This document shows positions 2 through 22,305 of a stretch of 64,000 bases of DNA, piece after piece; position 1 is the stretch's first letter, and every line of letters starts with the position of its first letter. The notes below the pieces were generated by a model, which saw only the letters and a program-made list of their open reading frames with translations, had not been told where the DNA came from and searched no databases. The position numbers and the translations under genes are program-made. The stretch lies in the IMG/VR virus record IMGVR_UViG_3300035162_004655, positions 3,576 to 67,575 of that record; one strand, 5' to 3'. This DNA is from a virus.

Positions 2-2614
2 AATAATACTAGTGGTTCTCCGATTAGTGGATACAATGGAACATTTATTGTTGCATCTGTGTCTGCAGATAATATGTCATTCACATATACAAATTCTACT
101 GGCAATCCTGGATCATTCAATAACGACACAAGTACCAGAAATATAAGTCTACCAAGATTTAAAAGAAATGATTTACAAAGTAACTTCTATGTTTATCGTA
201 ATGAAGTAATTTATGAGTATATTGACGGTCAACAAGATGGAGTTTATCACATATATGCACTCAAAGCGGATAATAAAATTGAGACGGAATTTACAAATTT
301 AAAATATGGACAAAATGTTACCGATTTGTATCCACAACTTGATAGGGATAATATAGATGATAATCCAGGATCAACTAAATCAAAAGCACTTTCTTCTCCA
401 ATTGGAGATGTCTATACAAGTGATCTAAAAGGAAGTATTACAAGAGAATCAGCAGATTCTTTTATGACAAAACTTGGTGGTGGTCTTATTGTTGATTCTA
501 TTCTACCAGAGAGTGGTGGTATTTCGACTGTAACATTTACTAGAAACCATGCATTTAGTGGTATTTCTACTGCCAGTCTTTTTACTGCAGGATCAGGAAC
601 AAGAACTGATGGAACATATTATAATGTAAAACTCTATAATAACAATGTATATTCAACTTGGAATGGTGCCACAGCAATAGTTAGTGTAGCCAGTAGTACA
701 ATCCAATCTTTCCAAATTCAAGCACCAGGATCTGGTTATTCGGGTGGAAGTAATCTTTATTTTGATAATGCTGCGATAGGTGGTAATCAAGATGGTGCTA
801 TCAGTATTTTAACTGCTGGTATTACAACATCAATTGGTGATGTAGTTCAGATTACTGGTATTTCAACTGTTTCTGATGCATATTATAGAATTACTAGTGT
901 TCCAACTGCAAATAGAATTTCTATTGCTAAAACTTCTGGTGATCCGGATATACTAGCAAATCATATTGTCATTCCCAGTGGACCTTCAATTTCAGTAAGT
1001 TCTTCCACATTTTTAAGTGGTATTACAACCTTTACTTGTTCATCTGCACACGGATTAGTTGCCGGAAATAAATTTAGAGCAATTGATGCTAGTAATAACA
1101 ATCTTGGAGATTATCTTGTAAAATCTAAAGTGAATGTGAATACATTTACTGCAGAAACTACGGGAGAATTAACAAGTCCTGCGTTTATACTTAAGCATAA
1201 TTTTTCATCTAATTCGGGTATATCCGATTCAAGTATAGAAAATATATCAATTAGACAAAGAAGTTTCTATGCCGGAGATTCCCTTATTATTAGTAATAGT
1301 GGAAATGATATTGGTCTTACTACAACATTAATTCCTGTCGAGCATCCAAAATCTGGTTCACCTTCTGGTATTGGAATTATTGAAAGGTTCCCACTTGGAA
1401 CATATGTTCAAGTTGATGATGAAATTATGAGGATTGCATCATCAACACTTACAGGAACAAATAAATTAACCGTTCTTCGTGGTGTTTTCTCATCAAATCT
1501 GGGAATACACTCTGATACTTCATTAGTCAAAAAAATTAATGCAATCCCTGTTGAGTTCCGTAGACCATCAATTATTCGTGCATCAGGACATACATTTGAA
1601 TATCTTGGATATGGTCCAGGTAACTACTCAACAGGTTTACCACAAATTCAAACAAGAACCCTAACAGAAAAAGAAGAGTTCTTAACACAATCCCAAGAAA
1701 GATCTGCTGGTATTGTTGTTTATACTGGTATGAACAATAGAGGTGACTTCTATATTGGTAACACTAAGAAGTCTTCTTCGACTGGTGAGGAAACTTCATT
1801 TGATACTCCAATTCCAACAGTTGCTGGTGAAGATCCAGCAAGATTGAGTGCAATTTTTGACGAAATTACCGTTAAGGAAAGAATCATTGTTGAAGGTGGT
1901 GATTCTCGACAAATTCTTTCGCAGTTTGATGGACCTGTTACTTTTGGTGGTGAAGTAAGAATTAAAAATACCTTATCACTTCCCGGAAAATTAAGAATAC
2001 TTAATTCGACACAATCAGTTGGTGTTGGAAATGGTTCTGTTGTGATTGATGGTGGTGTTAGTATTGCTAAAGATCTTTTTGTTGGAGGTAGTGTAAGTAT
2101 TACTGGTGATATTAATGTCAGTGGGTCTACCAATTTTGCAAGTTTAGTAGGAACTGGTGCAACACTTGGCAATATTCAAATTGCCGAAACTGATGATAAT
2201 ACTATTGACACCACTATAGGCAATCTTAAATTAAGTTCTATAGAAGGATCCATTGTTGAAATTCAAAGGAATACTACAATCACCGGTATTTTAAGTGTAA
2301 CTGATGATATTACCGCATTCTGGACTTCTGATGAAAGATTGAAGGATAATATTACTTTAATTAATGATCCTTTAACAAAAGTAATTTCAATCAGTGGTAA
2401 TACATTTGATTGGAATGATAAGTCTAACAAGAACGGTCATGATGTTGGTCTGATTGCACAAGAGATTGAAAAAGTTCTTCCAGAAGCAGTTATAACAAGA
2501 GATAGTGGATACCTTGCAGTTGATTACCATAAGGTAGTTCCATTACTTGTAGAGGCAATCAAGGAACTCTCCGACAAGGTTGATGCACTTGAGCAAAAAT
2601 TATCCGATAAATAA
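2..2614 (+). CDS. Tail fibre protein, 5' truncated, with C-terminal intramolecular chaperone (peptidase S74-type)
   Basis: The frame is open back to position 2. The body is G/S/T-rich and the C-terminus reads SDERLKDNI...GLIAQEIEKVLPEAV...VDYHKVVPLLVEAIKEL, the S74 chaperone signature. Confidence 0.85.
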   Translation, partial: NNTSGSPISGYNGTFIVASVSADNMSFTYTNSTGNPGSFNNDTSTRNISLPRFKRNDLQSNFYVYRNEVIYEYIDGQQDGVYHIYALKADNKIETEFTNLKYGQNVTDLYPQLDRDNIDDNPGSTKSKALSSPIGDVYTSDLKGSITRESADSFMTKLGGGLIVDSILPESGGISTVTFTRNHAFSGISTASLFTAGSGTRTDGTYYNVKLYNNNVYSTWNGATAIVSVASSTIQSFQIQAPGSGYSGGSNLYFDNAAIGGNQDGAISILTAGITTSIGDVVQITGISTVSDAYYRITSVPTANRISIAKTSGDPDILANHIVIPSGPSISVSSSTFLSGITTFTCSSAHGLVAGNKFRAIDASNNNLGDYLVKSKVNVNTFTAETTGELTSPAFILKHNFSSNSGISDSSIENISIRQRSFYAGDSLIISNSGNDIGLTTTLIPVEHPKSGSPSGIGIIERFPLGTYVQVDDEIMRIASSTLTGTNKLTVLRGVFSSNLGIHSDTSLVKKINAIPVEFRRPSIIRASGHTFEYLGYGPGNYSTGLPQIQTRTLTEKEEFLTQSQERSAGIVVYTGMNNRGDFYIGNTKKSSSTGEETSFDTPIPTVAGEDPARLSAIFDEITVKERIIVEGGDSRQILSQFDGPVTFGGEVRIKNTLSLPGKLRILNSTQSVGVGNGSVVIDGGVSIAKDLFVGGSVSITGDINVSGSTNFASLVGTGATLGNIQIAETDDNTIDTTIGNLKLSSIEGSIVEIQRNTTITGILSVTDDITAFWTSDERLKDNITLINDPLTKVISISGNTFDWNDKSNKNGHDVGLIAQEIEKVLPEAVITRDSGYLAVDYHKVVPLLVEAIKELSDKVDALEQKLSDK
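2606..2613 (+). promoter_or_regulatory. T4-type late promoter (GATAAATA)
   Basis: NATAAATA box 18 nt upstream of the ATG at 2632. Confidence 0.6.
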
Positions 2615-2631
2615 CTCTAAAGCTTATAATA

Positions 2632-4908
2632 ATGGCAAATATTAGGAAGTCATTTAATTTTAGGAATGGTGTTCAAGTTGATAATGATAATTTTATCGTA
2701 AATGCGAATGGACTGGTAGGAATCGGAACTTCGATTCCTACAGAATCTTTAGATTTGATTGGAAATGCGAAAATCAGTGGACTTACAACAACAACAACCT
2801 TAGGTGTTGCACAAACATCAAACTTTTATGGTGATGTTAAAGTAGGATCAGTCAATATAGATCCTAATAGTGGTATAATTACGGCAACACAGTTTGTTGG
2901 GGATGCTTCTTTACTTCAAAATATTTTTGCAATTTCAACGACTGGTTGGGTTGCAGGAGTAGGATTACATACATTTAGAGCAATTGGTATTGGAACAACT
3001 AATCCAGAATATAATTTACAAATAGAAGAGAACCCTGCCACAGGAATTGGCATAGGAATGACAAATGGTAACATTATTGTAAGTGGTAATGTTACTGCCG
3101 CAGGTAATTTTATTGGGTCAGTAACTGGTAATGTAATCGGCAATTTAACTGGAGATGTTGTTGGAATTTCCTCCGTTGCAAGTAAATTAGAAACTACAAC
3201 AACATTTGAAATCACTGGTGATGTAGTATCAAACGTATCACAAGAATTTGATGGAACTTCTAATATAAATTTAGTAACTACACTATCTTCATCTTTTGAT
3301 GCAAATACAACTGGAAGTATTATTGCAAATACCTTAGAAAGCAGTTTCCTAAAAGTAGGAACAGGAACAATTACAAATGCCACTCTTACAGATGCTGACA
3401 TTGAAAATGTCACAGTTACTGGTATAGGTTCGTTTAATGATATAAGAATTGATCGACCAACTCCCGCAAATCTTGTTATTACAAGTGAAGACGATTCATC
3501 TATAAGTATTGGTAAATCTGTTAGTGCTGGTAATAGTAGTGCTCAACTACTTTATAATCCAGCAACAGGTCGTTTAGACATTAATAACTATGATACTGGT
3601 GGAGTTCGTATCAATCTTCACGAAGGAACCGGTGTAGGAAACACAGAAAGTTTTGATATTCAATATAACAATACAAAACAATTTGAAGTTACTTATGATG
3701 GAAAAGTTGGTATTAATCGTGATGGTGCTGCATTAGAAAATAATTTAGAAGTTGGTGGTGATGCTCTTATTACTGGAAACGGAACGGTTAGTGGAATTTT
3801 AACTGTTACGGGAACTGGTGGAAATACAGTCACTTTAGGTGATGGAAGTGCATTACCAGTATCAGATAGTCAAAATTTCAATACTTTAACTGGAATTAGT
3901 ACTTTTAATGATTTAAGTATAAACAATGTTCAAGTAGGAGCAGGTAAAAGTGTAATAATTGGATTAGGTGGTGAAGAAGGGGGAGATTCTGACCTATTTG
4001 TTTTAGGTAGTGTTGGTATAGGAACAACTAATAAAAATAATTTTGTAAGTCAAGGTGACCAAACCCAAAAAGTTCAAATTACCGGGGATGTATTTGTTTA
4101 TGGTGATGCGACAGTAGGAGGTCTTGGTGGAGGATCTCTTGGCATCACAACTAATACTGATGGAACACTTCCATCAGATCCCAGAACGATTCCAAGCGAT
4201 TTAGGTCCTACAGTTCCATTTTTATCATATGGAAATTTCCAAGTTGATACTGGTGCAGCATCTCTTATTGTTGATAATTTATTAATTATTCCAAATCTTG
4301 GAAAAACTGCAGTTGGATTTGGATCAACTAATCTAGGTATGGTTCCAACTAATCATGATACGGATAAGTATCTAACAAAAGTTGGAGTTAATACTTATTT
4401 TGCAAGATCTTTATTTGATGTAGGAGCTGCTTCTACAACAATGAATAGTTATTTTATTCCACCATCATTGACGGAAGATGAGATATCTACTGTTAGCAAT
4501 TTATGGCAGAGTACAACTGATACTGGAAGAGATCAAGCAAAGAAAGTTACTCCAAATGGACTTGTTCCTGGAGGACTAGTATATAACTCCTCAAGAGATG
4601 CAGTTCAAATCAGAAATACTGCATCATCATTTAGAAACTTAAGTCCTGTTGTTGCTTTTAGTACTATTGATGGTGGAAGTATAGTTAGTAGTGATACTTT
4701 TAACTTATCAGTATCAAATGATGGTAATGATGCCAATTTTACATTTAGTAATACATTACCATCTGCAAATTATACTGTAATAGTTTCAAATCAAGGAACA
4801 TCAACCTTTACTGTTCCAGAAGCAGATAAAGCAACAAATTCATTCAAAATAACTTTCAGTTCTAGTGCTGGAAGTAGAAGTTACTCTGTAATGATACTTC
4901 AAGTATAA
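2632..4908 (+). CDS. Virion structural / tail fibre-like protein
   Basis: 758 aa with VGIGT repeats and G/T/N-rich beta composition. Its FEITGDVVS..FDG motif recurs in the fibre at 60121. Confidence 0.75.
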   Translation: MANIRKSFNFRNGVQVDNDNFIVNANGLVGIGTSIPTESLDLIGNAKISGLTTTTTLGVAQTSNFYGDVKVGSVNIDPNSGIITATQFVGDASLLQNIFAISTTGWVAGVGLHTFRAIGIGTTNPEYNLQIEENPATGIGIGMTNGNIIVSGNVTAAGNFIGSVTGNVIGNLTGDVVGISSVASKLETTTTFEITGDVVSNVSQEFDGTSNINLVTTLSSSFDANTTGSIIANTLESSFLKVGTGTITNATLTDADIENVTVTGIGSFNDIRIDRPTPANLVITSEDDSSISIGKSVSAGNSSAQLLYNPATGRLDINNYDTGGVRINLHEGTGVGNTESFDIQYNNTKQFEVTYDGKVGINRDGAALENNLEVGGDALITGNGTVSGILTVTGTGGNTVTLGDGSALPVSDSQNFNTLTGISTFNDLSINNVQVGAGKSVIIGLGGEEGGDSDLFVLGSVGIGTTNKNNFVSQGDQTQKVQITGDVFVYGDATVGGLGGGSLGITTNTDGTLPSDPRTIPSDLGPTVPFLSYGNFQVDTGAASLIVDNLLIIPNLGKTAVGFGSTNLGMVPTNHDTDKYLTKVGVNTYFARSLFDVGAASTTMNSYFIPPSLTEDEISTVSNLWQSTTDTGRDQAKKVTPNGLVPGGLVYNSSRDAVQIRNTASSFRNLSPVVAFSTIDGGSIVSSDTFNLSVSNDGNDANFTFSNTLPSANYTVIVSNQGTSTFTVPEADKATNSFKITFSSSAGSRSYSVMILQV

Positions 4909-4912
4909 GGAC

Positions 4913-4941
4913 TTGACAAGACTTTAAAACTACTGTAGACT
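4913..4941 (+). promoter_or_regulatory. Host sigma70-type promoter TTGACA-N17-TAGACT
   Basis: Consensus -35 at 4913-4918, 17 bp spacer and -10 at 4936-4941, intergenic. Confidence 0.7.
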
Positions 4942-4970
4942 ACCTTTGTTAGGGTTGAAGAGGAATCTAT

Positions 4971-5040
4971 AAGACACATTAAGAACCGTCCACCAGGTCG
5001 CACTGGGGACGGTTTTCTGCTATAATAAGAAGGTAATCGA
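4971..5040 (+). promoter_or_regulatory. Early-type promoter element copy 1 (dyad, hairpin, TGnTATAAT)
   Basis: AAGACA-N10-CGTCCAC, stem AACCGTCC/GGACGGTT, TATAAT at 5021, then AGGTAATC. Same layout as the other copies. Confidence 0.7.
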
Positions 5041-5049
5041 GGGAGACCT

Positions 5050-6240
5050 TTGACCATCACTCTCAGACCCCATCAACGCAAAGCACTGAATGAGATGCTG
5101 GCATATGACAAAGGTCAGTTGATCATCCCTACTGGTGGTGGTAAGACTTTGTGTATGATACACGATATTATTGAGAATCAAAAGTATATTGATAATGGTT
5201 CTACTATTGTTGTTGTAGCACCCCGTATTTTACTTGCAGAGCAACTTTGTAGTGAGTTTCTTGAGGTAATCGATACAACTCACACACATGTGATGCATGT
5301 TCATAGTGGTGAGACTTCACACTTCTCCACAACAAAAGCAGAAAAGATTAATCTTTTTGTAAATACTGCTAGAACTGCTGGTGAGAATGTAGTAATCTTT
5401 ACCACATATCACTCTCTACATCGTCTTGTAGAAGCAGACATCGAAGTCAATACGATTTACTTTGATGAAGCACATAACTCAGTCCAACGTAACTTTTTCC
5501 CTGCTACGGAGCACTTTTCTGCTGATGCTGATCGGTGTTACTTCTTCACTGCTACTCGTCGTACTTCTGCAACTATTTTTAAACCCGGTATGAATGATAC
5601 TGAGGTATATGGTGATGTAATTTATCGTGTTCCTGCCACCAAACTGGTTGATGGTGGTTATATTCTTCCTCCTCAAATCAAAGCAAAAAAGTTTGAGGTT
5701 CTTAAAGCAAATGAAATATCTGCCGACCGTGACTGCAACAATATTGTAGAAACTTTAGAAGAGAATAACACAAGTAAAGTTCTTGTTTGTGTTAAGAGTG
5801 CTAAACAACTTATTAATCTTATGTCGCAAACTGATTTTGCTATGCGACTGAATGATATGGGTTATTCTTTTCTTTATATCACTTCAAAAACAGGAGCGAT
5901 TATTGACGGTCAAAAAGTCAATCGTGAGGTTTTCTTTAATACTCTGAATGCTTGGGGCAAAGACCCCTCTAAGAAGTTTGTTTGTCTCCATCGATCTATT
6001 TTGAGTGAAGGTATTTCTGTTAATGGTCTTGAGTCTGTTATTTTTCTCCGCAATATGGATGTAATTGAGATGACTCAAACTATCGGAAGAGTTCTTCGCA
6101 CTGCTCCTAATAAAACCTACGGACTTTGTGTTGTTCCTGTTTATTCGCAGGTTGGTATTGCTACGGAGAAACGTATGCAGAATGTTGTTGATACTATCTT
6201 TGGGAAAGGTGAGATGCTTGATAGTGTAGTCAAACGATAG
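5050..6240 (+). CDS. Superfamily 2 helicase / type III restriction Res-like ATPase
   Basis: Q motif LRPHQ, Walker A PTGGGKT, DEAH, FTAT, LSEGI and QTIGRVLR motifs. TTG start after a GGGAG SD. Confidence 0.85.
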   Translation: MTITLRPHQRKALNEMLAYDKGQLIIPTGGGKTLCMIHDIIENQKYIDNGSTIVVVAPRILLAEQLCSEFLEVIDTTHTHVMHVHSGETSHFSTTKAEKINLFVNTARTAGENVVIFTTYHSLHRLVEADIEVNTIYFDEAHNSVQRNFFPATEHFSADADRCYFFTATRRTSATIFKPGMNDTEVYGDVIYRVPATKLVDGGYILPPQIKAKKFEVLKANEISADRDCNNIVETLEENNTSKVLVCVKSAKQLINLMSQTDFAMRLNDMGYSFLYITSKTGAIIDGQKVNREVFFNTLNAWGKDPSKKFVCLHRSILSEGISVNGLESVIFLRNMDVIEMTQTIGRVLRTAPNKTYGLCVVPVYSQVGIATEKRMQNVVDTIFGKGEMLDSVVKR

Positions 6241-15968: not shown

Positions 15969-17658
15969 ATGAATCAACAACAATCCAATCAAGAGTTCGT
16001 GAATGACTTGTTTGATAAACTCTTTAGTCATGTAGATACGGACATGATTGATTTACACGATGATGATTCGTGTTGTGACCATCTTGAATTTGAACAACTT
16101 GCTCTTGACTTCTAATGACTGATCTAACTTTTTCCGGTGTATTTCTAACAGTTGAGGAGCACAATTGCATGTATACGGTTTGTAGTGAGGGTGAATTATT
16201 CCGTGCCTCATTTGATAAGTTAGTATTAAACTTTGATGAGTTTGAGATTGTAGATTTTTGGGATGATGATGTGGACGGAGAACAATTAGAGGAGATACAA
16301 TCAAAGTTAATTGACATGATGCAAATTGCCGGACTGTATTTCAAATCACAACCGATTGTATTATCAGGAGTTAATGAATGAAGAAGACTGAGACTAATAT
16401 TGAACTAAATGTGCATGAGTTAGATATTATACTCAAGGCACTTGAATTAGTAGAGAACGGAGATGAGATACAGATCAATCGATCATCGGGTAGTATTGAT
16501 ACATTGTATGATCGGTTATATGATTATTATGTTACCCTAGACACATCAAACGTCGAACTCAATTATGAATCTTATGTTGAACCCTCTTTCTAAAGTCACA
16601 CCAGTGACACCACAAACAAATCCAGAGTTATGGTATTCATGGTATAATGTGGTCAAAGAAGATGCTCCTGAAGTATTGGATCAGTTTATTGAAAACACTG
16701 CTGCCAAGATGGAACTGACTGTTGATTACTTTACTGCGGAGTTCTTATGAAAAGGTATTTGTATGTTGTTGATTACTGGGTGCCATTTCCATCATCAGAA
16801 TATGGAGGGTTAATTACATTAATTGCAGAGAATGATGCAGAAGCCCTTGAGTTGTTATCTGATGAGGAATCATTTCATGAAGACTATGGGCATTTGATTA
16901 TGGAGAAGATTATTACTGCGACTAAGTTAGAGTTGGCGGATGATTATGAAAGTGGTATAATAGAGGTATTCTGCACTTAATCTCTATGGAAGAATTATAT
17001 AAACTCCAAGAAGAAGGAACATCAGGATGGACTGATATTACGGGACCATTAACAAGAGAAGAATGTAAGAAGTATTATGATGCAGAATTAAATGAAGGTA
17101 CAAGTCCAAAACGATTAAAGGTTGTAAGAGTCCAATGATTGATTTCCCACATCTACCACCCGAAGGTTTTTCTTATTCATTTGAATCATTTAATGCAAGG
17201 TATGATGCAATATGGATAATCAATCATGGTTTGTTTTCTTATAGAAATACACCACCTAAATCAATATGGGGATTCTATTCATCAAAGAAGGGAAAGTATT
17301 ATGCACCGATTAATTCAAAGAAGGTAGGTAAGGAAGTATCAATTAAGGATACAACACCTTATAGTGCAATGAAAAAGAACCTAAATCCATTAGAAGCAAT
17401 ATTGTACTCATGAGTTATGTCCCAAAGGTCAATGATTATGTAATATGGAATCATCATGGTATTATACATGAAGGATGGATATACTTTGTTGATAGTGCCT
17501 ATATTACGATTGAGACGGCAGTAAGACCTAAACCTAATTGTGAGTATACCAGAGAAGAGAAACATAAGTATATACATACTTTGCTTTGTTGTTATCCTCA
17601 TCAGTGGAAAGATCTTACCTATGTAAAAAGTCGGAAGAGCATCTATGAATCATTATAA
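15969..17658 (+). other. Run of short coupled hypothetical ORFs (15969-16115, 16115-16381, 16378-16593, 16747-16980, 17135-17413, 17410-17658), several acidic
   Basis: Overlapping start/stop codons. 16747 (YVVDYWVPFPSSEYGG) and 17135 (FPH.PP.G..Y, IWGFY, TTPYSAM) look like conserved cyanophage families. Confidence 0.6.
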
Positions 17659-18289
17659 AAAAGTATTATTTCCTATACATATTTTTCAGACAAATATACG
17701 TGAAAATGTGTTGATTTTAGATGATGCATTAGATAAAATTGAATATCTTTATAAAAGAAAAAATTTAAATGTTCCTGGTGGATGGTTGACAGATAATCTT
17801 TTTACCACATTTGAATCTGGCGAAATAAATTCATCTTTATTTCATAAAGATAGTGTATTTGTCAAGTATTATCGTGAGTATGTAACGAAGTTTTTTGATA
17901 AACCAGTTGAATTTGAATTTGATGATATTTGGTTAAATGTCTACTCAAAAGGTGAATTTCAGGAGCAACACTCACATTTATCTCCCAGCATTTTTATGAA
18001 AAGGACACATTTTTCTTGTATTCATTATTTGAAATTTGATCCAGAGGTTCATAAATCTGTAGTATTTGTTGATCCGTTAGATGAAATGAGATATAATACA
18101 TTAGAGATGGATTCAAATTATTATAGAGATAGATGGTCGCCACAGATTCGTGAGGGTGATTTATTAATGTTCCCATCATATTTGGAACATTTTGTGAATA
18201 AATCTGATCCAACACCAGATAATCCAAGAATATCGATATCATTTAATATTTGGATAAAACAATACGGAGAACAAACACATGAAGATTAA
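17645..18289 (+). CDS. 2OG-Fe(II) oxygenase (TIGR02466-like)
   Basis: WLN...QEQHSH, SCIHY, EGDLLMFPSYLEHFV and RISISFN motifs. Confidence 0.85.
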   Translation: MNHYKKVLFPIHIFQTNIRENVLILDDALDKIEYLYKRKNLNVPGGWLTDNLFTTFESGEINSSLFHKDSVFVKYYREYVTKFFDKPVEFEFDDIWLNVYSKGEFQEQHSHLSPSIFMKRTHFSCIHYLKFDPEVHKSVVFVDPLDEMRYNTLEMDSNYYRDRWSPQIREGDLLMFPSYLEHFVNKSDPTPDNPRISISFNIWIKQYGEQTHED

Positions 18290-18761
18290 TTTTGATGATA
18301 ATTTTTTAGAAAAGAGAGAGTTTGAGATTGTTCGCAATTATTGTTTAGATGCATCATATTATTATGGTGAGAGTGATAATGGTGATGGTATTGTGACTGG
18401 AATGATACATAACATACCAGAAACAGAATTTGTATATAAGTTATTTCGTAAGAAGTTAATGGATAAGTGTCCATTTCTTTCAGACATGAAATTATATCGG
18501 ATTTATATAAATTGTTTTGCTCCGAATGAAAATCCATATTTTCATACTGATGGAGAGGGATTAACATTTTTACATTATGTGAATAGTGAATGGAATTTGC
18601 AAGAGGGAGGAGAAACACAGTTTTGTGTGGACGATAACATTTATGGTATTGTTCCGATGCCAAATCGATTGGTGATGTTTGATGGTAAGATATTACATCG
18701 TGCGACATCATTTCGGAATAATCATAGGTTCACGGTTGCAATTAAGTATTCACCACAATAA
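18279..18761 (+). CDS. 2OG-Fe(II) oxygenase, prolyl-4-hydroxylase-like
   Basis: FHTD (HxD), W...GGETQF, NRLVMFDG.ILHRA and RFTVA motifs. Confidence 0.85.
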   Translation: MKINFDDNFLEKREFEIVRNYCLDASYYYGESDNGDGIVTGMIHNIPETEFVYKLFRKKLMDKCPFLSDMKLYRIYINCFAPNENPYFHTDGEGLTFLHYVNSEWNLQEGGETQFCVDDNIYGIVPMPNRLVMFDGKILHRATSFRNNHRFTVAIKYSPQ

Positions 18762-18764
18762 ATA
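18757..18764 (+). promoter_or_regulatory. Late promoter AATAAATA
   Basis: NATAAATA box 23 nt upstream of the ATG at 18788. Confidence 0.6.
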
Positions 18765-18787
18765 TAAAAAAGTAGTTTACCATATCC

Positions 18788-19951
18788 ATGGCAGTCAATA
18801 TTAGTAAAGTTGAAAAACTTACAGGTTCTTCGGGTCCTATATCTTTTTCTCAAATTAAAGATGAGTTTGGAGGAAATACTACAAATATCCGTGCCTCACT
18901 TTATAGAAGAAATGATGGTGATAATGTAGATTGGGACGGTCCTAATGCATCAAAAATTGAACCAAAAATTCCTGATGCAACAGAAAATCAAGACATTGGT
19001 TCCAAAAATAATTGGAATGTGAGTGCATTAAGAAATACTGTCATGGAGTATAATGTCACTCAGAGTGGAAGTAATGAGGAACTGGTATATTTTGATAGTG
19101 ATACATCAACATGGAATGGAAATTTAAATCGTAATGTTTTAAAGAAATTTGATGTAACAGGAACTATCTTTGCAAATCAAATTAATAAAGATGCACTTAC
19201 ATTTGGAGGTGATTTATATAATTTAGAAATTGAGGTTGATGGGACCGGAAAAATTTATGGTGAGGGAGGTAGTATTGGATCTGGAGCAGGAGGAGATGCA
19301 CTGTATGTAAACAATACCAGAACAAATTCACCTGTTGAGATTTATTCCTACGGACAAATTTATGCTGGAGGTGGTGGAGGTGCTTCTGGAAATCCCGGAA
19401 ATAGTGGTTCAAGTTTAAGTTGTAGTAGTACCAGTTATTATAATGCGAACAATCCATTTAGGAGTGGAACCAATTTAAGTGATGCAAGACCTGGGCAAAC
19501 ATGTCGTAGAGCAAGAAGTGGAGGAAGATGGGTGAGTGCAAATCAAAGTGGTATAAGAAATCGTTGTCGTGGAGGTGGAACAAGAAGAGGTAGTGGTGAT
19601 TATCCGGGAGGTAATTATCAGTGTTCTTCATCTTGGAATGTTCTTTGTGTACGAACCAACAGTTATAATTTAGGTGGAGGTAATGGAGGAAATGGCGGTA
19701 GTGGAGGACGTGGCAGAGGATTCAGTTATCAGAGTGGAAGTTTGTCAGGAAATTCTGGAAACAGTGGAAACTCAAATAGTTGTAGTGGAGGTACTTCAAC
19801 AGGAAACCGTGGAAATTCTGGAACGAGTGGTGGAGATTGGGGACAATCTGGAGGAAGTGGTGCTTCTGCAGGAATTGCAATTCAAAAGAAGAATGCCGTG
19901 ATGAAAAGTTATACAAGCAATACTGTAAAGGGTAGGATTGTTGATATATAA
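18788..19951 (+). CDS. Glycine-rich virion protein, T-even gp38-like adhesin / receptor-binding protein
   Basis: IYGEGG..G..GGDAL...IYSYGQIYAGGGGG...GGDWGQSG...AGIAI...VKGRI follows the gp38 glycine-rich-motif order. N-terminus GPISFSQIKDEFGG; late promoter. Confidence 0.6.
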   Translation: MAVNISKVEKLTGSSGPISFSQIKDEFGGNTTNIRASLYRRNDGDNVDWDGPNASKIEPKIPDATENQDIGSKNNWNVSALRNTVMEYNVTQSGSNEELVYFDSDTSTWNGNLNRNVLKKFDVTGTIFANQINKDALTFGGDLYNLEIEVDGTGKIYGEGGSIGSGAGGDALYVNNTRTNSPVEIYSYGQIYAGGGGGASGNPGNSGSSLSCSSTSYYNANNPFRSGTNLSDARPGQTCRRARSGGRWVSANQSGIRNRCRGGGTRRGSGDYPGGNYQCSSSWNVLCVRTNSYNLGGGNGGNGGSGGRGRGFSYQSGSLSGNSGNSGNSNSCSGGTSTGNRGNSGTSGGDWGQSGGSGASAGIAIQKKNAVMKSYTSNTVKGRIVDI

Positions 19952-19970
19952 TGTGCAATGAGATTTTACT

Positions 19971-20300
19971 ATGTTAGATGATTTAGTATTTAAATTTATG
20001 GATGAATTTTTCTTAAAAGAGAGAGAAATATTCTTTGATGCATCTAAGAACTGTCAAAAAGAACGATGGAGTATTTGTCAGGCATGTGAACACTTTGATG
20101 AACCGGAGGAAGGATGTAAAGAATGTGGATGTTATTTACCTCATAAGATAAAAGATCAGTGGGGTGATTGTCCATTAGATAAGTGGATATCAAATGATGA
20201 AGAATGGAAGAGTAAGTATTATAATGAATTAAAAGATGTTATAATAGAGAAGTATCCAGAGTATCAAGAACTAATTGAAAAACATGAACGAATCAATTGA
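19971..20300 (+). CDS. Cys-rich protein, DUF6171-like
   Basis: ERWSICQAC...CKECGC...K......CPLDKW. Confidence 0.7.
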   Translation: MLDDLVFKFMDEFFLKEREIFFDASKNCQKERWSICQACEHFDEPEEGCKECGCYLPHKIKDQWGDCPLDKWISNDEEWKSKYYNELKDVIIEKYPEYQELIEKHERIN

Positions 20301-20901
20301 ATTAAAGGGAAGATATTCTGATTTCATTGGAGAATACTCATGTGTATATTCTACGGAGTATTGTAATGAGATTATAAGGGGTTTTGATTATTATCAGGAT
20401 ATTAATGCAGTCTATTGTGAGGATAATCAATTTCCGAATAGTAATGCCGGTAGGTTTGATTGGGCATTAGATTTATATGATATGGGTCCAAGTTTAGATG
20501 GACCTGTATCTAAACAAATGAATGAAGTATTGTTTGAATGTTTAGAAGAGTATACACAAGTCTTTGGTCATTTAAAAACAGTACCATTTTATTCACTGGC
20601 ACAAAAGATACAGAAGACTCCTGCCGGTGGTGGTTATCATGTCTGGCACGATGAGAATAGTAGTATACAAGAAGCACGAAGAGCTCTTGTATGGATGGTA
20701 TATTTAAATGATGATTATGAAGGAGGAGAAACAGAGTATTTGTATTATAAGAAAAGAATACAACCAGAGAGAGGTAAGTTACTTATATGGCCTGCAGGTA
20801 TGACACATTGCCATAGAGGAGGATTGGTATTGAAAGGTAATAAGTATGTTGCAACAGGATGGTTCTATCTGGGAGGAATGGATTATGCAAGAGAAGAATA
20901 A
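20284..20901 (+). CDS. 2OG-Fe(II) oxygenase, prolyl-4-hydroxylase-like
   Basis: QKT..GGGYHVWHDE, YLND..EGGETE, WPAGMTHCHRG and KYVATGW motifs. Confidence 0.85.
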   Translation: MNESIELKGRYSDFIGEYSCVYSTEYCNEIIRGFDYYQDINAVYCEDNQFPNSNAGRFDWALDLYDMGPSLDGPVSKQMNEVLFECLEEYTQVFGHLKTVPFYSLAQKIQKTPAGGGYHVWHDENSSIQEARRALVWMVYLNDDYEGGETEYLYYKKRIQPERGKLLIWPAGMTHCHRGGLVLKGNKYVATGWFYLGGMDYAREE

Positions 20902-21163
20902 AGATGAGGAATTTCCTTCTGTTAATGAACAAGGAAAGAATCTGGCAAAGTTTACATTTGAAGTAGTAAAGAATGTAATTGATCTATCACCTAGTAATGA
21001 GACTAAGTTACTTCTATCTAAAGAAGAACAGAAGGAAAGATTGGATATATGTAAGAAGTGTGAGTATTATAGTGTAAGACAGAATAGATGTAGACAGTGT
21101 GGTTGTCATCTGTCTCATAAGGTGAAGTTTGGTGTGAGTCGGTGTCCAATAGGTAAATGGTAA
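20885..21163 (+). CDS. Cys-rich protein, DUF6171-like (paralogue of 19971)
   Basis: ERLDICKKC...RCRQCGC...K......CPIGKW. Confidence 0.7.
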   Translation: MQEKNKDEEFPSVNEQGKNLAKFTFEVVKNVIDLSPSNETKLLLSKEEQKERLDICKKCEYYSVRQNRCRQCGCHLSHKVKFGVSRCPIGKW

Positions 21164-21195: not shown

Positions 21196-22233
21196 TTAAA
21201 TGTAATTCCACTTGTGATCAAATGCCCATTTCCAGTATTCACCATTCATCCTATTCTTAATGTTGCGTGTTATACCTCCCACACCACTATAATCACCTTC
21301 ACTCTTAATATAAAATGATGCTTCACTTATGCTATTGAAGGTAATCGTTTCACCGGTATGAATGTTAATACCTTTTACCGGTTTCCTTCTTTTGGCTGCA
21401 CTTATTGCAGATGCTTTCTTATAATGTTCTGTACTATGCCTATTAGTGGCAAAGGTGATCTTATCATAAGAAATGATCTTACCTTTCTTATGGAACAGAT
21501 ACCAACCCTTACATTGTAGTTTATTCTTATGGGGACTTTTTAATGATTGAAATACACCATTATTATTCTTTTTATCTCCTGTTATGAACTCTGCACAGTC
21601 TGCCTGACTCTTCCATTCCTTATATTCACCATTAGTATTATATCCATAGACACCAGTTCTAATTCTAATCTGCTTATCTTTCCATTCTTTTAATTTCTCA
21701 CCTTTCCAAGTCCATCTATAATTATGTGATTGAAATACATTACCTTTACAACATTGTCTAATACATTGTCTTTCATTTCCAGAAGGTTTATATCCTAATG
21801 TTTCTAATGCTGCGACACCAACAGTATCATAGTCACAAATATAAACATCATCTAATGTATAACAACTGACGGCACGACTGTTAGGATGCTTAGACCAATA
21901 CTTTGATGGTTTAGATATACCTTCTCCACCATAGGTACAGTTATATCCCGCACCATCACAGGTATTATATTCTGCAATGTAATGTTTTTCTCTTTCATTT
22001 ACATTATCATCAGTACATTCTTCTAATACTCTAAACTTAAAGTTGTTACTACCATACTTATTGATTGCTTTAATAATAGGCATTGAATGAATGGAATTGT
22101 ATGCCGATGTACTCTCTTTTAATCTGGCATTATTGATGTGTTCTTTCCATCTATCATATGGATTGAGTTTAGTTGTTTTACCAATATATTGCTTACCATT
22201 CAGATTGTTTGTAATGCTGTAGATGTATGCCAT
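21196..22233 (-). CDS. Free-standing GIY-YIG homing endonuclease with NUMOD1-like repeats
   Basis: MAYIYSITNNLNGKQYIGKT, RW.EH, AINKYG..NF, E..YI and GYN.T.GGEG, followed by repeated domains ending FNSISEAS. It is the only long minus-strand gene I accept. Confidence 0.85.
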   Translation of the reverse strand: MAYIYSITNNLNGKQYIGKTTKLNPYDRWKEHINNARLKESTSAYNSIHSMPIIKAINKYGSNNFKFRVLEECTDDNVNEREKHYIAEYNTCDGAGYNCTYGGEGISKPSKYWSKHPNSRAVSCYTLDDVYICDYDTVGVAALETLGYKPSGNERQCIRQCCKGNVFQSHNYRWTWKGEKLKEWKDKQIRIRTGVYGYNTNGEYKEWKSQADCAEFITGDKKNNNGVFQSLKSPHKNKLQCKGWYLFHKKGKIISYDKITFATNRHSTEHYKKASAISAAKRRKPVKGINIHTGETITFNSISEASFYIKSEGDYSGVGGITRNIKNRMNGEYWKWAFDHKWNYI

Positions 22234-22305
22234 TATTGAATTATAATATATTCGTGTGTTCTGTATATATGCTGATTTAAAACTATTATAGAGATTTAAC
22301 AAGTC

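What the first reader, a model, noticed from the sequence alone, without database searches (positions are those of the whole stretch)
17645..21163. Candidate adhesin-maturation system: gp38-like receptor-binding protein flanked by three 2OG-Fe(II) oxygenases and two Cys-rich paralogues
Seen: six contiguous, mostly overlapping genes in the order oxygenase, oxygenase, [late promoter] Gly-rich protein, CxxC/CxxCGC/CP..KW protein, oxygenase, second CxxC/CxxCGC/CP..KW protein. The block lies far from the tail module, inside the early region. The Gly-rich protein follows the motif order of T-even gp38 adhesins, but carries an Arg-rich insert of about 85 aa and has six Cys in total, five in the insert and one just after it. 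Established: gp38 caps fibres whose C-terminal intramolecular chaperone is cleaved off, and two such fibres are in this window (2-2614, 58536-60071). Cyanophage 2OG oxygenases are common, but to my knowledge their substrates are unknown. Inference: this is a portable host-range cassette in which the oxygenases hydroxylate the adhesin and the DUF6171-like proteins assist disulfide formation, metal loading or folding. That would amount to phage-encoded post-translational tailoring of a receptor-binding protein.
Basis: partly seen in the sequence, partly recalled or inferred. Interest (0 to 1): 0.78.

Follow-up and report, generated by a model that had tools for sequence, protein, structure and literature searches.

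The report
Cyanophage fibre-tip adhesin with helper genes
An uncultured marine cyanophage encodes a glycine-rich tail-fibre tip protein of the kind that T-even phages use to recognise their host, packed together with a small cysteine-rich partner and three iron oxygenases that may chemically tailor it, though no chemistry has been shown.

Summary
The six genes are real and lie at the stated coordinates. The Gly-rich protein (18788-19951) has the gp38 adhesin fold. Its AlphaFold model matches PP01 and S16 gp38 at Z 17.0, against 8.3 for the next chain. A conserved late-promoter-like ATAAATA/CTAAATA motif lies 25-34 nt upstream of its start codon.

Its 89-aa Arg-rich insert carries five Cys and is the most variable part of the protein.

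Among 82 distinct relatives, a DUF6171-like six-Cys protein lies directly downstream in 66. All 66 adhesins have at least 6 Cys. None of the 15 adhesins with 5 or fewer Cys has it, and there is one exception (15 Cys, no partner). On a tree this amounts to only three independent contrasts.

Oxygenases cluster around the adhesin: 46 of 160 adjacent genes, against 7 of 774 genes four or more positions away. Their order and family differ between lineages. One lineage pairs collagen-like X-Pro-Gly adhesins with PKHD-type hydroxylases, and another pairs Trp-rich inserts with Trp halogenases.

No modification is shown, and such enzymes are scattered widely in cyanophage genomes.

Verdict: adhesin confirmed; dedicated helper likely; enzymatic tailoring plausible but unproven. 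The scan noted the same theme before on other DNA. Iyer et al. 2010 described the enzyme arrays but proposed secondary metabolism.

The parts
17645..18289 (+). OxyA: 2OG-Fe(II) oxygenase of the PF13759/TIGR02466 type, with a candidate metal motif H109-x-H111...H182.
   Evidence: Pfam PF13759 at 1.4e-12 and 48.3 bits. phrog_81 at 2.5e-35. TIGR02466 at 2e-11, below its cut-off. Motif positions. Orthologues stay next to the adhesin in four further gene orders: L136/L139, L106 and L123, plus a weak match in L104 at 2.8e-6.
18279..18761 (+). OxyB: 2OG-Fe(II) oxygenase of the PF13640 type, with H89-T-D91...H140.
   Evidence: Pfam PF13640 at 3.1e-6 and 28.5 bits. phrog_274 at 1.9e-28. The nearest NCBIfam model is the FlmC family oxygenase at 1.2e-16, with 61 bits against a cut-off of 240. 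Motif positions.
18758..18765 (+). Late-promoter-like motif AATAAATA, 22 nt upstream of the adhesin ATG.
   Evidence: Sequence. ATAAATA (marine relatives) or CTAAATA (pair-only relatives) lies about 25-34 nt upstream of the ATG in 31 of the 32 distinct upstream stretches; the exception is L004, whose ORF was called from an upstream TTG. ATAAATA is depleted in the window: 16 matches against 36.9 expected, 13 of them on the + strand, several just before structural genes. That this motif acts as the cyanophage late promoter is recalled, not tested.
18788..19951 (+). Gp38-like tail-fibre tip adhesin (387 aa).
   Evidence: AlphaFold2 model with pLDDT 78.6. The top three Foldseek hits are gp38 chains. 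VIA-align gives Z 17.0 to PP01 gp38 (9v85_A) and Z 17.0 to S16 gp38 (6f45_D), against 8.3 for the next chain. hhalign against S16 gp38 gives E 5.9e-4. 123 homologous clusters were found, and the source's precomputed Pfam column lists PF05268 for most of them.
19409..19675 (+). Insert domain of the adhesin (residues 208-296): Arg-rich, five Cys, hypervariable.
   Evidence: Composition. Mean pairwise identity is 31% in the insert against 43-62% in the other segments, among 14 close relatives. Cys 212, 260, 279, 287 and 332 are invariant in all 24 aligned sequences. The model folds the insert as a separate alpha/beta unit; residues 260-279 have low confidence. By motif order it sits where S16 gp38 has the short loop FRVGHTEA.
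19971..20300 (+). CysD: long DUF6171-like six-Cys protein with a C-terminal helical hairpin. Proposed dedicated partner of the adhesin.
   Evidence: DUF6171 at 1.3e-3, below threshold; phrog_13558 at 1.7e-12. A gene of this type follows the adhesin in 66 of 82 distinct relatives. In all 33 adhesin-adjacent copies aligned, the protein continues past the conserved KW. Model pLDDT is 91.3. No solved relative: best Z 3.9 among 48161 chains.
20275..20901 (+). OxyE: prolyl-hydroxylase-like 2OG-Fe(II) oxygenase (PF13640), with H125-D-E127...H178/H180.
   Evidence: Pfam at 1.6e-11. phrog_61 at 4.4e-43. The nearest solved chains are collagen-type prolyl 4-hydroxylases at E 4e-3 and lysyl hydroxylase LH3; all are weak matches. 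Motif positions.
20846..21163 (+). CysF: short DUF6171-like six-Cys protein that ends at the conserved KW.
   Evidence: DUF6171 at 4.3e-5, below threshold; phrog_13558 at 5.4e-17. It persists alone in L018 and L023, where the five upstream genes are missing between the same flanking genes. Relatives occur in 63 cultured-phage records.
21196..22302 (-). GIY-YIG homing endonuclease flanking the block. A possible driver of cassette exchange.
   Evidence: PF01541 at 1.5e-11 and the SegE GIY-YIG domain at 5.9e-6. Minus-strand genes with similar GIY-YIG-type N-terminal sequence lie just after CysF in L018 and L023, judged by eye. A role in moving the cassette is inference.
2..4908 (+). Candidate cognate fibre pair: fibre 1 with a self-cleaving chaperone domain (2-2614) and fibre 2 (2632-4908).
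   Evidence: Peptidase_S74 at 1.2e-13 in fibre 1. Both genes, and the helicase at 5050-6240, are orthologous to the genes that flank the adhesin in S-SRM01, L102, L104, L114, L116, L117, L121, L136 and L137. That the adhesin caps one of these fibres is inference.

Best explanation
The block is a host-recognition cassette of a T4-like cyanophage.

Shown by prediction and comparison:
- Gene 3 encodes a gp38-type tail-fibre tip adhesin with a polyglycine-rich sandwich.
- A conserved late-promoter-like motif precedes it.
- One glycine-motif loop is expanded into an 89-aa Arg-rich insert held by conserved Cys. This insert is the fastest-evolving part of the protein.

Inferred, about 0.6:
- The long DUF6171-like protein encoded directly behind the adhesin (CysD) is a dedicated, probably metal-binding, six-Cys partner.
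- It would help the Cys-bearing insert to fold, form disulfides or take up a metal, or help the adhesin dock on its fibre.
- Such a gene follows adhesins that have 6 or more Cys, and does not follow adhesins that have lost them.

Inferred, about 0.35-0.4:
- The three 2OG-Fe(II) oxygenases hydroxylate side chains of the adhesin or its fibre in the infected cell before assembly.
- This would add chemical diversity or stability to the receptor-binding tip.
- The short copy CysF would then work with OxyE.

Inferred: the adhesin then caps a trimeric fibre whose C-terminal chaperone domain has been cleaved off. The most likely candidate is the fibre pair at 2-4908.
For: Fold:
- The model has pLDDT 78.6.
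- The three best Foldseek hits are gp38 chains.
- VIA-align gives Z 17.0 with 180 residues aligned at rmsd 3.1 (PP01), and Z 17.0 with 198 of 248 residues aligned (S16). The next chain scores 8.3.
- hhalign gives E 5.9e-4 over the first glycine motifs.
- One relative, L125, reaches PF05268 at 24.7 bits against a cut-off of 25.

Late expression:
- The ATAAATA/CTAAATA motif is conserved upstream of the adhesin gene in 31 of 32 distinct upstream stretches.
- The motif is depleted elsewhere in the window.

Helper:
- Of 82 distinct adhesins, 66 have a DUF6171-like gene within 700 nt downstream, and all 66 have at least 6 Cys.
- 0 of 15 adhesins with 5 or fewer Cys have it. L026 and L113 were added to the 66 by inspection.
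- The lineage without Cys, helper or oxygenases is sister to the window's lineage, with SH-aLRT 88.
- All 33 adhesin-adjacent copies aligned carry a C-terminal extension.

Enzymes:
- Oxygenase genes make up 46 of 160 genes at distance 1 and 59 of 153 at distance 2, against 7 of 774 at distance 4 or more.
- Outside the two big clades the figures are 8 of 207 against 1 of 323.
- OxyA/OxyB orthologues follow the adhesin-helper pair in other gene orders and at another genomic site.
- All 12 of 12 adhesins with collagen-like X-Pro-Gly repeats are followed directly by an oxygenase. The six of these enzymes that were scanned, from four loci, are PF13640. The one compared with solved structures is PKHD-type and is not orthologous to OxyE.
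- Trp halogenases sit directly upstream of 7 distinct adhesins, whose median Trp count is 8. Enzyme-free adhesins have a median of 3.

Genes A-E are present or absent as a unit.

Pieces of all six genes occur in contigs from RNA libraries of three studies.
Against: - No chemical modification, metal, disulfide or virion location has been measured for any member.
- The only cultured carrier, S-SRM01, has no proteomics in its paper.
- The helper/Cys association rests on three independent contrasts: two go the same way and one shows no difference. The sign test gives p 0.5.
- L137 has 15 Cys and no helper gene.
- CysF stands alone in L018 and L023.
- DUF6171-like genes also occur in Rhizobium, Stenotrophomonas and cyanophage genomes without this adhesin.
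- 28 of 82 adhesins have no oxygenase or halogenase nearby.
- Oxygenases and halogenases are also wedged between unrelated genes in cultured phages, for example between the terminase subunits of HTVC008M.
- The RxRCRGG motif is confined to the window's clade and does not travel with OxyA/OxyB.
- The oxygenase counts use related loci, crude ORF calls and a small set of query enzymes.
- Pfam GP38 is not reached by the window protein.
Confidence: 0.5

Rival explanations
1. The adhesin and its small partner are real. The three oxygenases are unrelated cargo: auxiliary metabolic or secondary-metabolite enzymes, or enzymes acting on host proteins or nucleic acids. They would simply accumulate in the same plastic, recombination-prone island as host-range genes.
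For: - Cyanophage genomes carry from 1-5 up to 24 such genes, and their functions have 'not been specifically investigated' (passages of PMC9602691).
- Iyer et al. 2010 read the Syn9 array of ten dioxygenases and two halogenases as secondary-metabolite machinery (passages of PMC2938197).
- In cultured phages these enzymes sit between unrelated genes.
- 28 of 82 adhesins have no such enzyme nearby.
- No insert motif tracks OxyA/OxyB.
- A homing endonuclease flanks the block.
Against: - Oxygenases are about 30-40 times denser at gene distance 1-2 from the adhesin than at distance 4 or more in the same contigs.
- OxyA/OxyB move with the adhesin-helper pair to another site and another order.
- Non-orthologous hydroxylases were recruited next to collagen-like adhesins in 12 of 12 cases.
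- Genes A-E are gained or lost together.
Confidence: 0.35
2. The DUF6171-like proteins are general small zinc-ribbon factors of T4-like phages, for example nucleic-acid-binding regulators of late genes. They would not be folding or maturation helpers, and their position behind the adhesin would reflect co-regulation only.
For: - Relatives occur in 63 cultured-phage records, many among small early-region genes without the adhesin.
- CysF persists alone in L018 and L023.
- Three longer forms of 351-361 aa carry an acidic tail that ends in KKRGRPKK, which resembles an AT-hook.
- No solved fold relative points to a chaperone.
Against: - The long form follows the adhesin in 66 of 67 cases where the adhesin has 6 or more Cys, and in 0 of 15 where it has 5 or fewer.
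- It keeps a specific C-terminal extension in all 33 adjacent copies aligned.
- L123 has three tandem copies behind one adhesin.
Confidence: 0.15
3. The Gly-rich protein is not a virion adhesin. It would be a non-structural or secreted glycine-rich protein that merely shares the polyglycine fold.
For: - In this phage the gene lies 12.5 kb from the fibre genes, among small early-type genes.
- Residues 1-80, which should dock on the fibre, are modelled with low confidence.
- There are no proteomics.
Against: - The structural match covers S16 gp38 residues 6-249, including the attachment part.
- A late-promoter-like motif is conserved in front of the gene.
- In 41 of the 85 distinct relatives listed, the gene sits directly behind genes of fibre size; blastp of 15 of these loci shows orthology to window 2-4908.
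Confidence: 0.05

Closest known systems
gp37-gp38 adhesin tip complex of T2/S16/PP01-type phages (PDB 6F45, 9V85; Pfam PF05268)
   Same: - Polyglycine-rich sandwich fold, at Z 17.0 to both solved gp38 structures.
- Shared motif order: IYG.GG...GGGGG...GRG(Y/F)...GGDWG...AGRA.
- A variable loop region between glycine motifs.
- Partner fibres with a Peptidase_S74 chaperone domain are present.
   Different: - The protein does not reach the Pfam GP38 score.
- It is 387 aa against 249 aa for S16 gp38.
- One loop is expanded to an 89-aa Arg-rich domain with five Cys.
- In this phage the gene is not next to the fibre gene.
- It is followed by a six-Cys partner gene and flanked by oxygenases. The S16 record annotates none of these around gp38.
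Synechococcus phage S-SRM01 ORF53 'adhesin tip complex' (QPX48018)
   Same: - It is the only cultured-phage homologue found.
- It has a Cys-rich insert and is followed by a DUF6171-like gene.
- It was annotated from an HHpred match to PF05268 at E 3.9e-7 (Table 2 of PMC8557907, passage seen).
   Different: - It sits between the fibre genes and the helicase.
- It is preceded by a Trp halogenase (PF04820 at 8e-84) rather than by oxygenases.
- Its insert has 11 Cys, including CxxCxxC, and 9 Trp.
- In the passages found, the paper does not discuss the neighbouring genes.
Syn9/Syn10 tandem dioxygenase-halogenase arrays (Iyer, Abhiman, de Souza and Aravind 2010, PMC2938197)
   Same: - Several unrelated 2OG dioxygenases, and in relatives Trp halogenases, are packed together in a cyanomyovirus next to glycine-rich fibre-type genes.
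- That paper proposes that bacterial collagen-like and tail-collar proteins are substrates of co-encoded hydroxylases.
   Different: - The paper assigns the phage arrays to secondary-metabolite synthesis, not to virion proteins.
- Syn9 gp38/gp39 belong to another glycine-rich type.
- No DUF6171-like partner is described in the passages read.
- Here there are only three oxygenases, and they wrap one adhesin gene.
Collagen prolyl 4-hydroxylases and PKHD-type hydroxylases (PDB 3itq, 5hv0, 3dkq, PiuC)
   Same: - OxyE is nearest to collagen-type prolyl 4-hydroxylases (E 4e-3).
- The oxygenase examined behind a collagen-like relative (L129) is nearest to PKHD-type hydroxylases (E 3.8e-10).
- Those adhesins carry 28-40 Pro-Gly dipeptides in G-x-P repeats.
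   Different: - The sequence similarity is weak.
- No substrate has been tested.
- The window's own adhesin has only three x-Pro-Gly sites.
Phage tail-fibre assembly chaperones (T4 gp57A and gp38; Pam3 gp25; recalled, with PMC9608196 seen only in a search listing)
   Same: A small protein encoded next to the fibre or adhesin gene, proposed to be needed for its folding or assembly.
   Different: - No sequence or fold similarity to any solved chain was found for CysD.
- Six invariant Cys suggest a metal site.
- Binding has not been tested.

Membership tests
gp38 tail-fibre adhesin (PF05268; S16/T2/PP01 type) | Polyglycine-rich sandwich fold built from successive glycine-rich motifs | tested here: met
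   The AF2 model matches 9v85_A at Z 17.0 (180 residues aligned, rmsd 3.1) and 6f45_D at Z 17.0 (198 aligned). The next chain scores 8.3. The Foldseek top three are gp38 chains.
gp38 tail-fibre adhesin (PF05268; S16/T2/PP01 type) | Sequence reaches the Pfam GP38 gathering score | tested here: not met
   There was no hit at E <= 0.1 for the window protein. One of 24 aligned relatives hit at E 0.11. L125 reaches 24.7 bits against a cut-off of 25. The precomputed Pfam column of the protein collection lists PF05268.19 for most homologues, without scores.
gp38 tail-fibre adhesin (PF05268; S16/T2/PP01 type) | N-terminal domain that docks on the fibre tip | tested here: inconclusive
   The structural alignment spans S16 residues 6-249, but model residues 1-80 have pLDDT mostly under 70.
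gp38 tail-fibre adhesin (PF05268; S16/T2/PP01 type) | Gene directly downstream of the distal fibre gene, with a fibre that has a cleavable C-terminal chaperone domain | tested here: inconclusive
   In the window the adhesin gene lies 12.5 kb from the fibre pair. In relatives it follows orthologues of that pair. Peptidase_S74 is present in window fibres 2-2614 and 58536-60071, but in relatives it is found in fibre 1, not in the gene next to the adhesin.
gp38 tail-fibre adhesin (PF05268; S16/T2/PP01 type) | Located at the fibre tip in virions and binds the host receptor | not testable with these tools
   No proteomics or structures exist for any carrier. The S-SRM01 paper contains no mass spectrometry.
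DUF6171 (PF19668) | Sequence reaches the Pfam gathering score over the whole 80-position profile | tested here: not met
   The two proteins score 19.5 and 24.3 bits against a cut-off of 27. Only profile positions 35-80 or 39-80 are matched. The nearest Atlas clusters carry PF19668 in 21-38% of their members. An annotated DUF6171 protein of S-SCSM2R matches CysF at E 5e-6.
2OG-Fe(II) oxygenase superfamily (PF13759, PF13640) | Pfam gathering score and a candidate H-x-D/E/H...H metal motif | tested here: met
   Scores are 48.3, 28.5 and 45.4 bits against a cut-off of 27. Motifs are H109-S-H111...H182, H89-T-D91...H140 and H125-D-E127...H178/180. Assigning these residues as metal ligands is by eye, not by alignment to a solved enzyme.
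Collagen-type prolyl 4-hydroxylase | Close sequence relationship and an X-Pro-Gly substrate | tested here: inconclusive
   OxyE matches 3itq and 5hv0 only at E 4e-3. The window adhesin has three x-Pro-Gly sites. No substrate was tested.
RiPP-type tailoring system | Short precursor with leader and core peptide, a recognition element and a leader protease | tested here: not met
   The candidate substrate is a 387-aa folded structural protein. No protease or recognised RiPP recognition domain was found among the six genes. The resemblance is conceptual only.

The most novel reading that the evidence does not exclude
T4-like cyanophages enzymatically tailor the receptor-binding tip of their own tail fibres. 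Interchangeable enzyme sets would be matched to the composition of the adhesin's variable regions:
- three 2OG oxygenases here;
- PKHD-type prolyl-hydroxylase-like enzymes beside collagen-like adhesins;
- Trp halogenases beside Trp-rich inserts.

A six-Cys DUF6171-like partner would mature the Cys-bearing insert. This would give the abundant, unexplained cyanophage oxygenases and viral halogenases a natural protein substrate. It would also add a chemical layer to host-range evolution.
Probability: 0.3. Interest if true: 0.85.

Novelty: new variant of a known kind. Interest (0 to 1): 0.62.

Why it matters
Cyanophages carry many 2OG oxygenases, and often halogenases, whose substrates are unknown (passages of PMC9602691 and PMC2938197). 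If the fibre-tip adhesin is their substrate, three things follow:
- A long-standing puzzle becomes directly testable by mass spectrometry or co-expression.
- Host recognition by ocean phages would depend on post-translational chemistry as well as on sequence.
- Host-range prediction from adhesin sequences alone would be incomplete.

Independently of that, the data define an abundant, almost uncultured family of gp38-type adhesins in marine and freshwater cyanophages. They also give a specific partner gene (a DUF6171-like protein) for a Pfam family with no literature: 0 papers were found for 'DUF6171'.

Tried and rejected
- **Complex prediction.** Binding is untested.
- **PDB sequence search.** A profile of the adhesin alignment found nothing at E <= 1.
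- **CysD fold.** Foldseek found nothing (best E 8.9). VIA-align against 48161 chains gave a best Z of 3.9. No fold relative can be named.
- **Cultured phages.** tblastn of the adhesin found only S-SRM01. tblastn of the collagen-like relative found nothing. BLAST's low-complexity filter may hide matches.
- **First locus search.** A single-sequence locus search with the adhesin gave one locus only. The alignment-based search was needed.
- **Fused forms.** A search for longer DUF6171-like proteins gave three, each with an acidic tail but no enzymatic domain.
- **Substrate motif.** I asked whether the RxRCRGG motif of the insert tracks OxyA/OxyB. It does not.
- **Split adhesin in L113.** It looked by eye like a Hint/intein insertion, but Pfam gave no hit, so the idea was dropped.
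- **RNA evidence.** Only assembled contigs of RNA libraries were available. They cover pieces of all six genes but cannot show transcript starts, strand or level, and DNA carry-over is not excluded. One contig end at 18756 turned out to be a variant junction with other upstream sequence, not a transcript start.
- **Earlier notes.** The look-ups by place and by sequence found nothing.
- **Literature.** 'DUF6171' returned 0 papers. Searches for cyanophage with gp38 and adhesin, and for cyanophage with 2OG-Fe, hydroxylation and tail fiber, listed no paper that reports modified cyanophage fibre proteins.

Full report
**Observation**

Gaps and overlaps between neighbours are -11, +26, +19, -26 and -56 nt.

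Pfam places the first, second and fifth proteins in the 2OG-Fe(II) oxygenase superfamily, all above the gathering score. The hits are PF13759 at 48.3 bits, PF13640 at 28.5 bits and PF13640 at 45.4 bits. PHROGs agrees.

The two small proteins share six Cys in the pattern CxxC...CxxCxC...CP..KW. They match DUF6171 only below its threshold and only over the C-terminal half of the profile. They match phrog_13558 well.

The 387-aa protein is 18% glycine and has Cys at 212, 239, 260, 279, 287 and 332. Residues 208-296 form an insert with 12 Arg, no Lys and 2 acidic residues.

The window lies in a 67.6-kb IMG/VR virus record that is estimated to be 31% complete. The only PF13640 matches in that record are the two in this block.

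**The Gly-rich protein is a gp38-type adhesin**

An AlphaFold2 model built on 24 relatives has mean pLDDT 78.6. Low confidence is confined to residues 1-80 and 260-280.

- The three best Foldseek hits in the PDB are gp38 chains of phages PP01 and S16. Everything below them is noise at E about 1.
- VIA-align gives Z 17.0 to PP01 gp38 (180 residues, rmsd 3.1) and Z 17.0 to S16 gp38 (198 of 248 residues, chain residues 6-249). The next chain scores 8.3.
- hhalign against S16 gp38 aligns the first glycine motifs at E 5.9e-4, probability 29%.
- The motif order IYG.GG / GGGGG / GRG(Y/F) / GGDWG / AGRA can be read in both sequences.

The window protein itself does not reach Pfam GP38. One relative misses the cut-off by 0.3 bits. 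The protein collection's precomputed column lists PF05268 for most of the 123 homologous clusters. The freshwater phage S-SRM01 has the only cultured homologue. Its authors annotated it from an HHpred match to PF05268 (Table 2 of PMC8557907, passage seen).

By motif order, the insert sits where S16 gp38 has the short loop FRVGHTEA. The model folds it as a separate alpha/beta unit.

Among 14 close relatives the insert is the least conserved segment: 31% mean pairwise identity against 43-62% elsewhere. Five Cys are nevertheless invariant in all 24 aligned sequences. This is what is expected of a receptor-contacting hypervariable region held by a fixed scaffold. That reading is inference.

**Timing and fibre partner**

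ATAAATA (marine relatives) or CTAAATA (pair-only relatives) lies about 25-34 nt upstream of the adhesin ATG in 31 of the 32 distinct upstream stretches. The exception, L004, is an ORF called from an upstream TTG. In the window, ATAAATA is depleted: 16 matches against 36.9 expected. Thirteen of the 16 lie on the coding strand, several just before baseplate genes. That this is the cyanophage late promoter is recalled from the S-PM2 and Syn9 literature and was not tested here.

The fibre at 2-2614, the fibre-like gene at 2632-4908 and the helicase at 5050-6240 are orthologous to the genes that flank the adhesin in many relatives. In those relatives the order is fibre 1, fibre 2, adhesin, (helper), helicase. 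One relative, L117, has a helicase 90% identical to the window's. So the usual home of the adhesin is behind the fibre genes. In this phage and its clade it lies 12.5 kb further on.

**The small Cys-rich partner**

Two locus searches in IMG/VR were run. One was anchored on CysF (73 loci) and one on the adhesin alignment (62 loci). Together they gave 85 distinct adhesin sequences. Of these, 82 are at least 330 aa long and have at least 700 nt of downstream DNA.

- A DUF6171-like gene lies within 700 nt downstream in 66 of the 82. The script found 64; L026 and L113 were added after inspection of ORF-calling quirks.
- All 66 adhesins have at least 6 Cys.
- Of the 16 without the gene, 15 have 0-5 Cys. 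One, L137, has 15 Cys.

On a tree of the N-terminal 210 residues, the helper's presence changes three times. Cys content changes the same way in two contrasts and does not differ in the third. That is too few for significance (sign test p 0.5). The lineage that lacks the Cys insert, the helper and the oxygenases is sister to the window's lineage, with SH-aLRT 88.

All 33 aligned copies that follow an adhesin carry a C-terminal extension after the conserved KW. In the CysD model (pLDDT 91.3) this extension is a helical hairpin. CysF and the free-standing copies end at KW. No solved structure resembles CysD.

Evidence against a strictly dedicated role:
- CysF remains alone between the same flanking genes in L018 and L023, where genes A-E are absent.
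- DUF6171-like genes occur in 63 cultured-phage records. These include Rhizobium and Stenotrophomonas phages, where they lie among small early genes.
- In two cyanophages they adjoin oxygenases without an adhesin.
- In one cyanophage the gene lies about 300 nt behind a long tail fibre gene.

Many inserts outside the window's clade contain CxxCxxC, for example CGGCPGC. This, and the six invariant Cys of the partner, make a metal site as plausible as disulfides. The data cannot separate the two.

**The oxygenases**

The six-gene order is kept in 31 of the 75 loci held at that stage. L065 has the same order by position.

Other architectures:
- adhesin, helper, OxyA, OxyB at the fibre locus (L136, L139);
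- OxyA, adhesin, helper (L106);
- halogenase, small gene, OxyA, adhesin, three helpers (L123);
- a halogenase directly upstream of the adhesin in 7 distinct sequences, including S-SRM01;
- a clade of 12 longer adhesins of 547-639 aa. They have 28-40 Pro-Gly dipeptides in G-x-P repeats and no helper, and each is followed directly by an oxygenase. The six of these enzymes scanned, from four loci, are PF13640. In four of the five loci read in full, a second such enzyme follows within three genes.

The oxygenase of that clade that was examined is nearest to PKHD-type hydroxylases (E 3.8e-10). It is not orthologous to OxyE or OxyB, so oxygenases were recruited next to this adhesin family more than once.

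In crude gene calls of the 82 loci, oxygenases account for:

| Gene distance from adhesin | Oxygenase genes |
|---|---|
| 1 | 46 of 160 |
| 2 | 59 of 153 |
| 3 | 3 of 132 |
| 4 or more | 7 of 774 |

Outside the two large clades the figures are 8 of 207 within three genes, against 1 of 323 further away.

Caveats:
- The loci are related to one another.
- The denominators include spurious ORFs.
- Only eight query enzymes were used, so other 2OG families may have been missed.

Results against tailoring:
- 28 of 82 adhesins have no oxygenase within 2.5 kb and no halogenase within 5 kb.
- The RxRCRGG motif of the insert is confined to the window's clade and does not follow OxyA/OxyB.
- In cultured cyanophages the same enzyme families are scattered among unrelated genes. 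One S-RSM4 oxygenase lies between a virion structural protein and a tail assembly chaperone. In HTVC008M they sit between the terminase subunits.

The nearest named relatives of the window's enzymes are weak matches. They are collagen-type prolyl hydroxylases for OxyE, the FlmC family for OxyB (61 bits against a cut-off of 240), and two uncharacterised structural-genomics proteins for OxyA.

**Expression and abundance**

Near-identical DNA occurs in 14 runs from several studies. Contigs from RNA libraries of three studies cover pieces of all six genes at 90-99% identity. Because these are contigs, they show neither strand, nor transcript starts, nor levels, and DNA carry-over cannot be excluded.

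**Comparison with what is known**

The adhesin is a divergent member, by fold, of the gp38 family. Its presence in a cyanophage was already annotated once, in S-SRM01.

Tandem dioxygenase and halogenase arrays in cyanophages were described by Iyer et al. 2010 (passages of PMC2938197). They proposed secondary-metabolite synthesis for the phage arrays. For bacterial operons they proposed hydroxylation of co-encoded collagen-like or tail-collar proteins. A 2022 paper states that the functions of cyanophage 2OG oxygenases have not been specifically investigated (passages of PMC9602691).

Earlier notes of this scan describe the same theme, fibre-tip genes joined to oxygenases and halogenases, in eight other windows. 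One of them led me to the Iyer paper. Those notes are not independent evidence.

This window adds:
- the specific pairing of Cys-bearing gp38-type adhesins with a DUF6171-like partner, a family with no literature (0 papers);
- the match between enzyme type and adhesin composition across lineages;
- the unit-like presence or absence of genes A-E.

**Verdict**

| Claim | Estimate |
|---|---|
| Observation | confirmed |
| gp38-type adhesin | about 0.9 |
| Dedicated small partner | about 0.6 |
| Oxygenases act on the adhesin or its fibre | about 0.35-0.4 |

The main rival is that the oxygenases are unrelated cargo of a plastic island (about 0.35). This is a new variant of a known kind. It is interesting mainly because it offers a concrete, testable substrate for enzymes that are abundant in ocean phages and still unexplained.

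Noticed in passing
window 21196-22302 (- strand): A GIY-YIG (SegE-like) homing endonuclease gene abuts the cassette. Minus-strand genes with similar GIY-YIG-type N-terminal sequence (by eye) lie just after CysF in L018 and L023, and minus-strand ORFs of 233-345 aa lie there in L003, L015, L026, L046 and L065. It might promote exchange of the adhesin cassette between co-infecting phages.
   Followed up: partly
window 2-6240: The fibre with a Peptidase_S74 domain, a 758-aa fibre-like protein and a DEAD-box helicase are orthologous to the genes that flank the adhesin in many relatives. Here only a 141-nt gap lies between fibre 2 and the helicase, so the adhesin has a different address in this clade.
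   Followed up: yes
L129, L131-L134, L138, L140-L145 (e.g. L129:4179-5882): A clade of 547-639-aa gp38-like proteins has collagen-like GTPGTPG repeats and an Arg-rich centre. In the five loci read in full, the gene is followed directly by one or two PF13640 oxygenases (the one compared with solved structures is PKHD-type), then a DUF6267-sized gene, with Trp halogenase genes further on. Pfam confirmed DUF6267 and one halogenase in L129 only.
   Followed up: partly
L001:4355-5812 (S-SRM01) and L108, L109, L111, L112, L115, L121: A tryptophan halogenase gene sits directly upstream of the gp38-like gene in 7 distinct loci. Their inserts are Trp-rich (median 8 Trp). This gives a candidate natural substrate for viral halogenases.
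   Followed up: partly
L002:4370-7666 (same contig as L009): The closest relative of the window's adhesin (72% identity over the N-terminal part) is 1098 aa long, about 700 residues more than the window's. L020 and L021 carry other inserts of about 120-160 aa after the first glycine motifs. No Pfam family was found for these inserts.
   Followed up: partly
P0123-P0125 (protein collection): These long DUF6171-like proteins (351-361 aa) have an acidic low-complexity tail that ends in KKRGRPKK, an AT-hook-like motif. It hints at DNA binding for at least some family members.
   Followed up: no
L123:5364-6136: Three tandem DUF6171-like genes follow a single 560-aa gp38-like gene.
   Followed up: no
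window 31061-43066 and 44687-52117: Two giant ORFs of 4001 aa (YHYH domain) and 2476 aa (DUF4815) lie among the baseplate genes gp6-like and gp8-like.
   Followed up: no
whole window: The heptamer ATAAATA is strongly depleted: 16 matches against 36.9 expected, and all 100 shuffles had at least 16. Thirteen of the 16 are on the + strand, several just upstream of structural genes.
   Followed up: partly
L113:5001-7134: The gp38-like gene appears as two ORFs (483 aa and 141 aa) separated by about 250 nt. The first ORF contains a long non-glycine stretch. No Pfam family matched it.
   Followed up: partly
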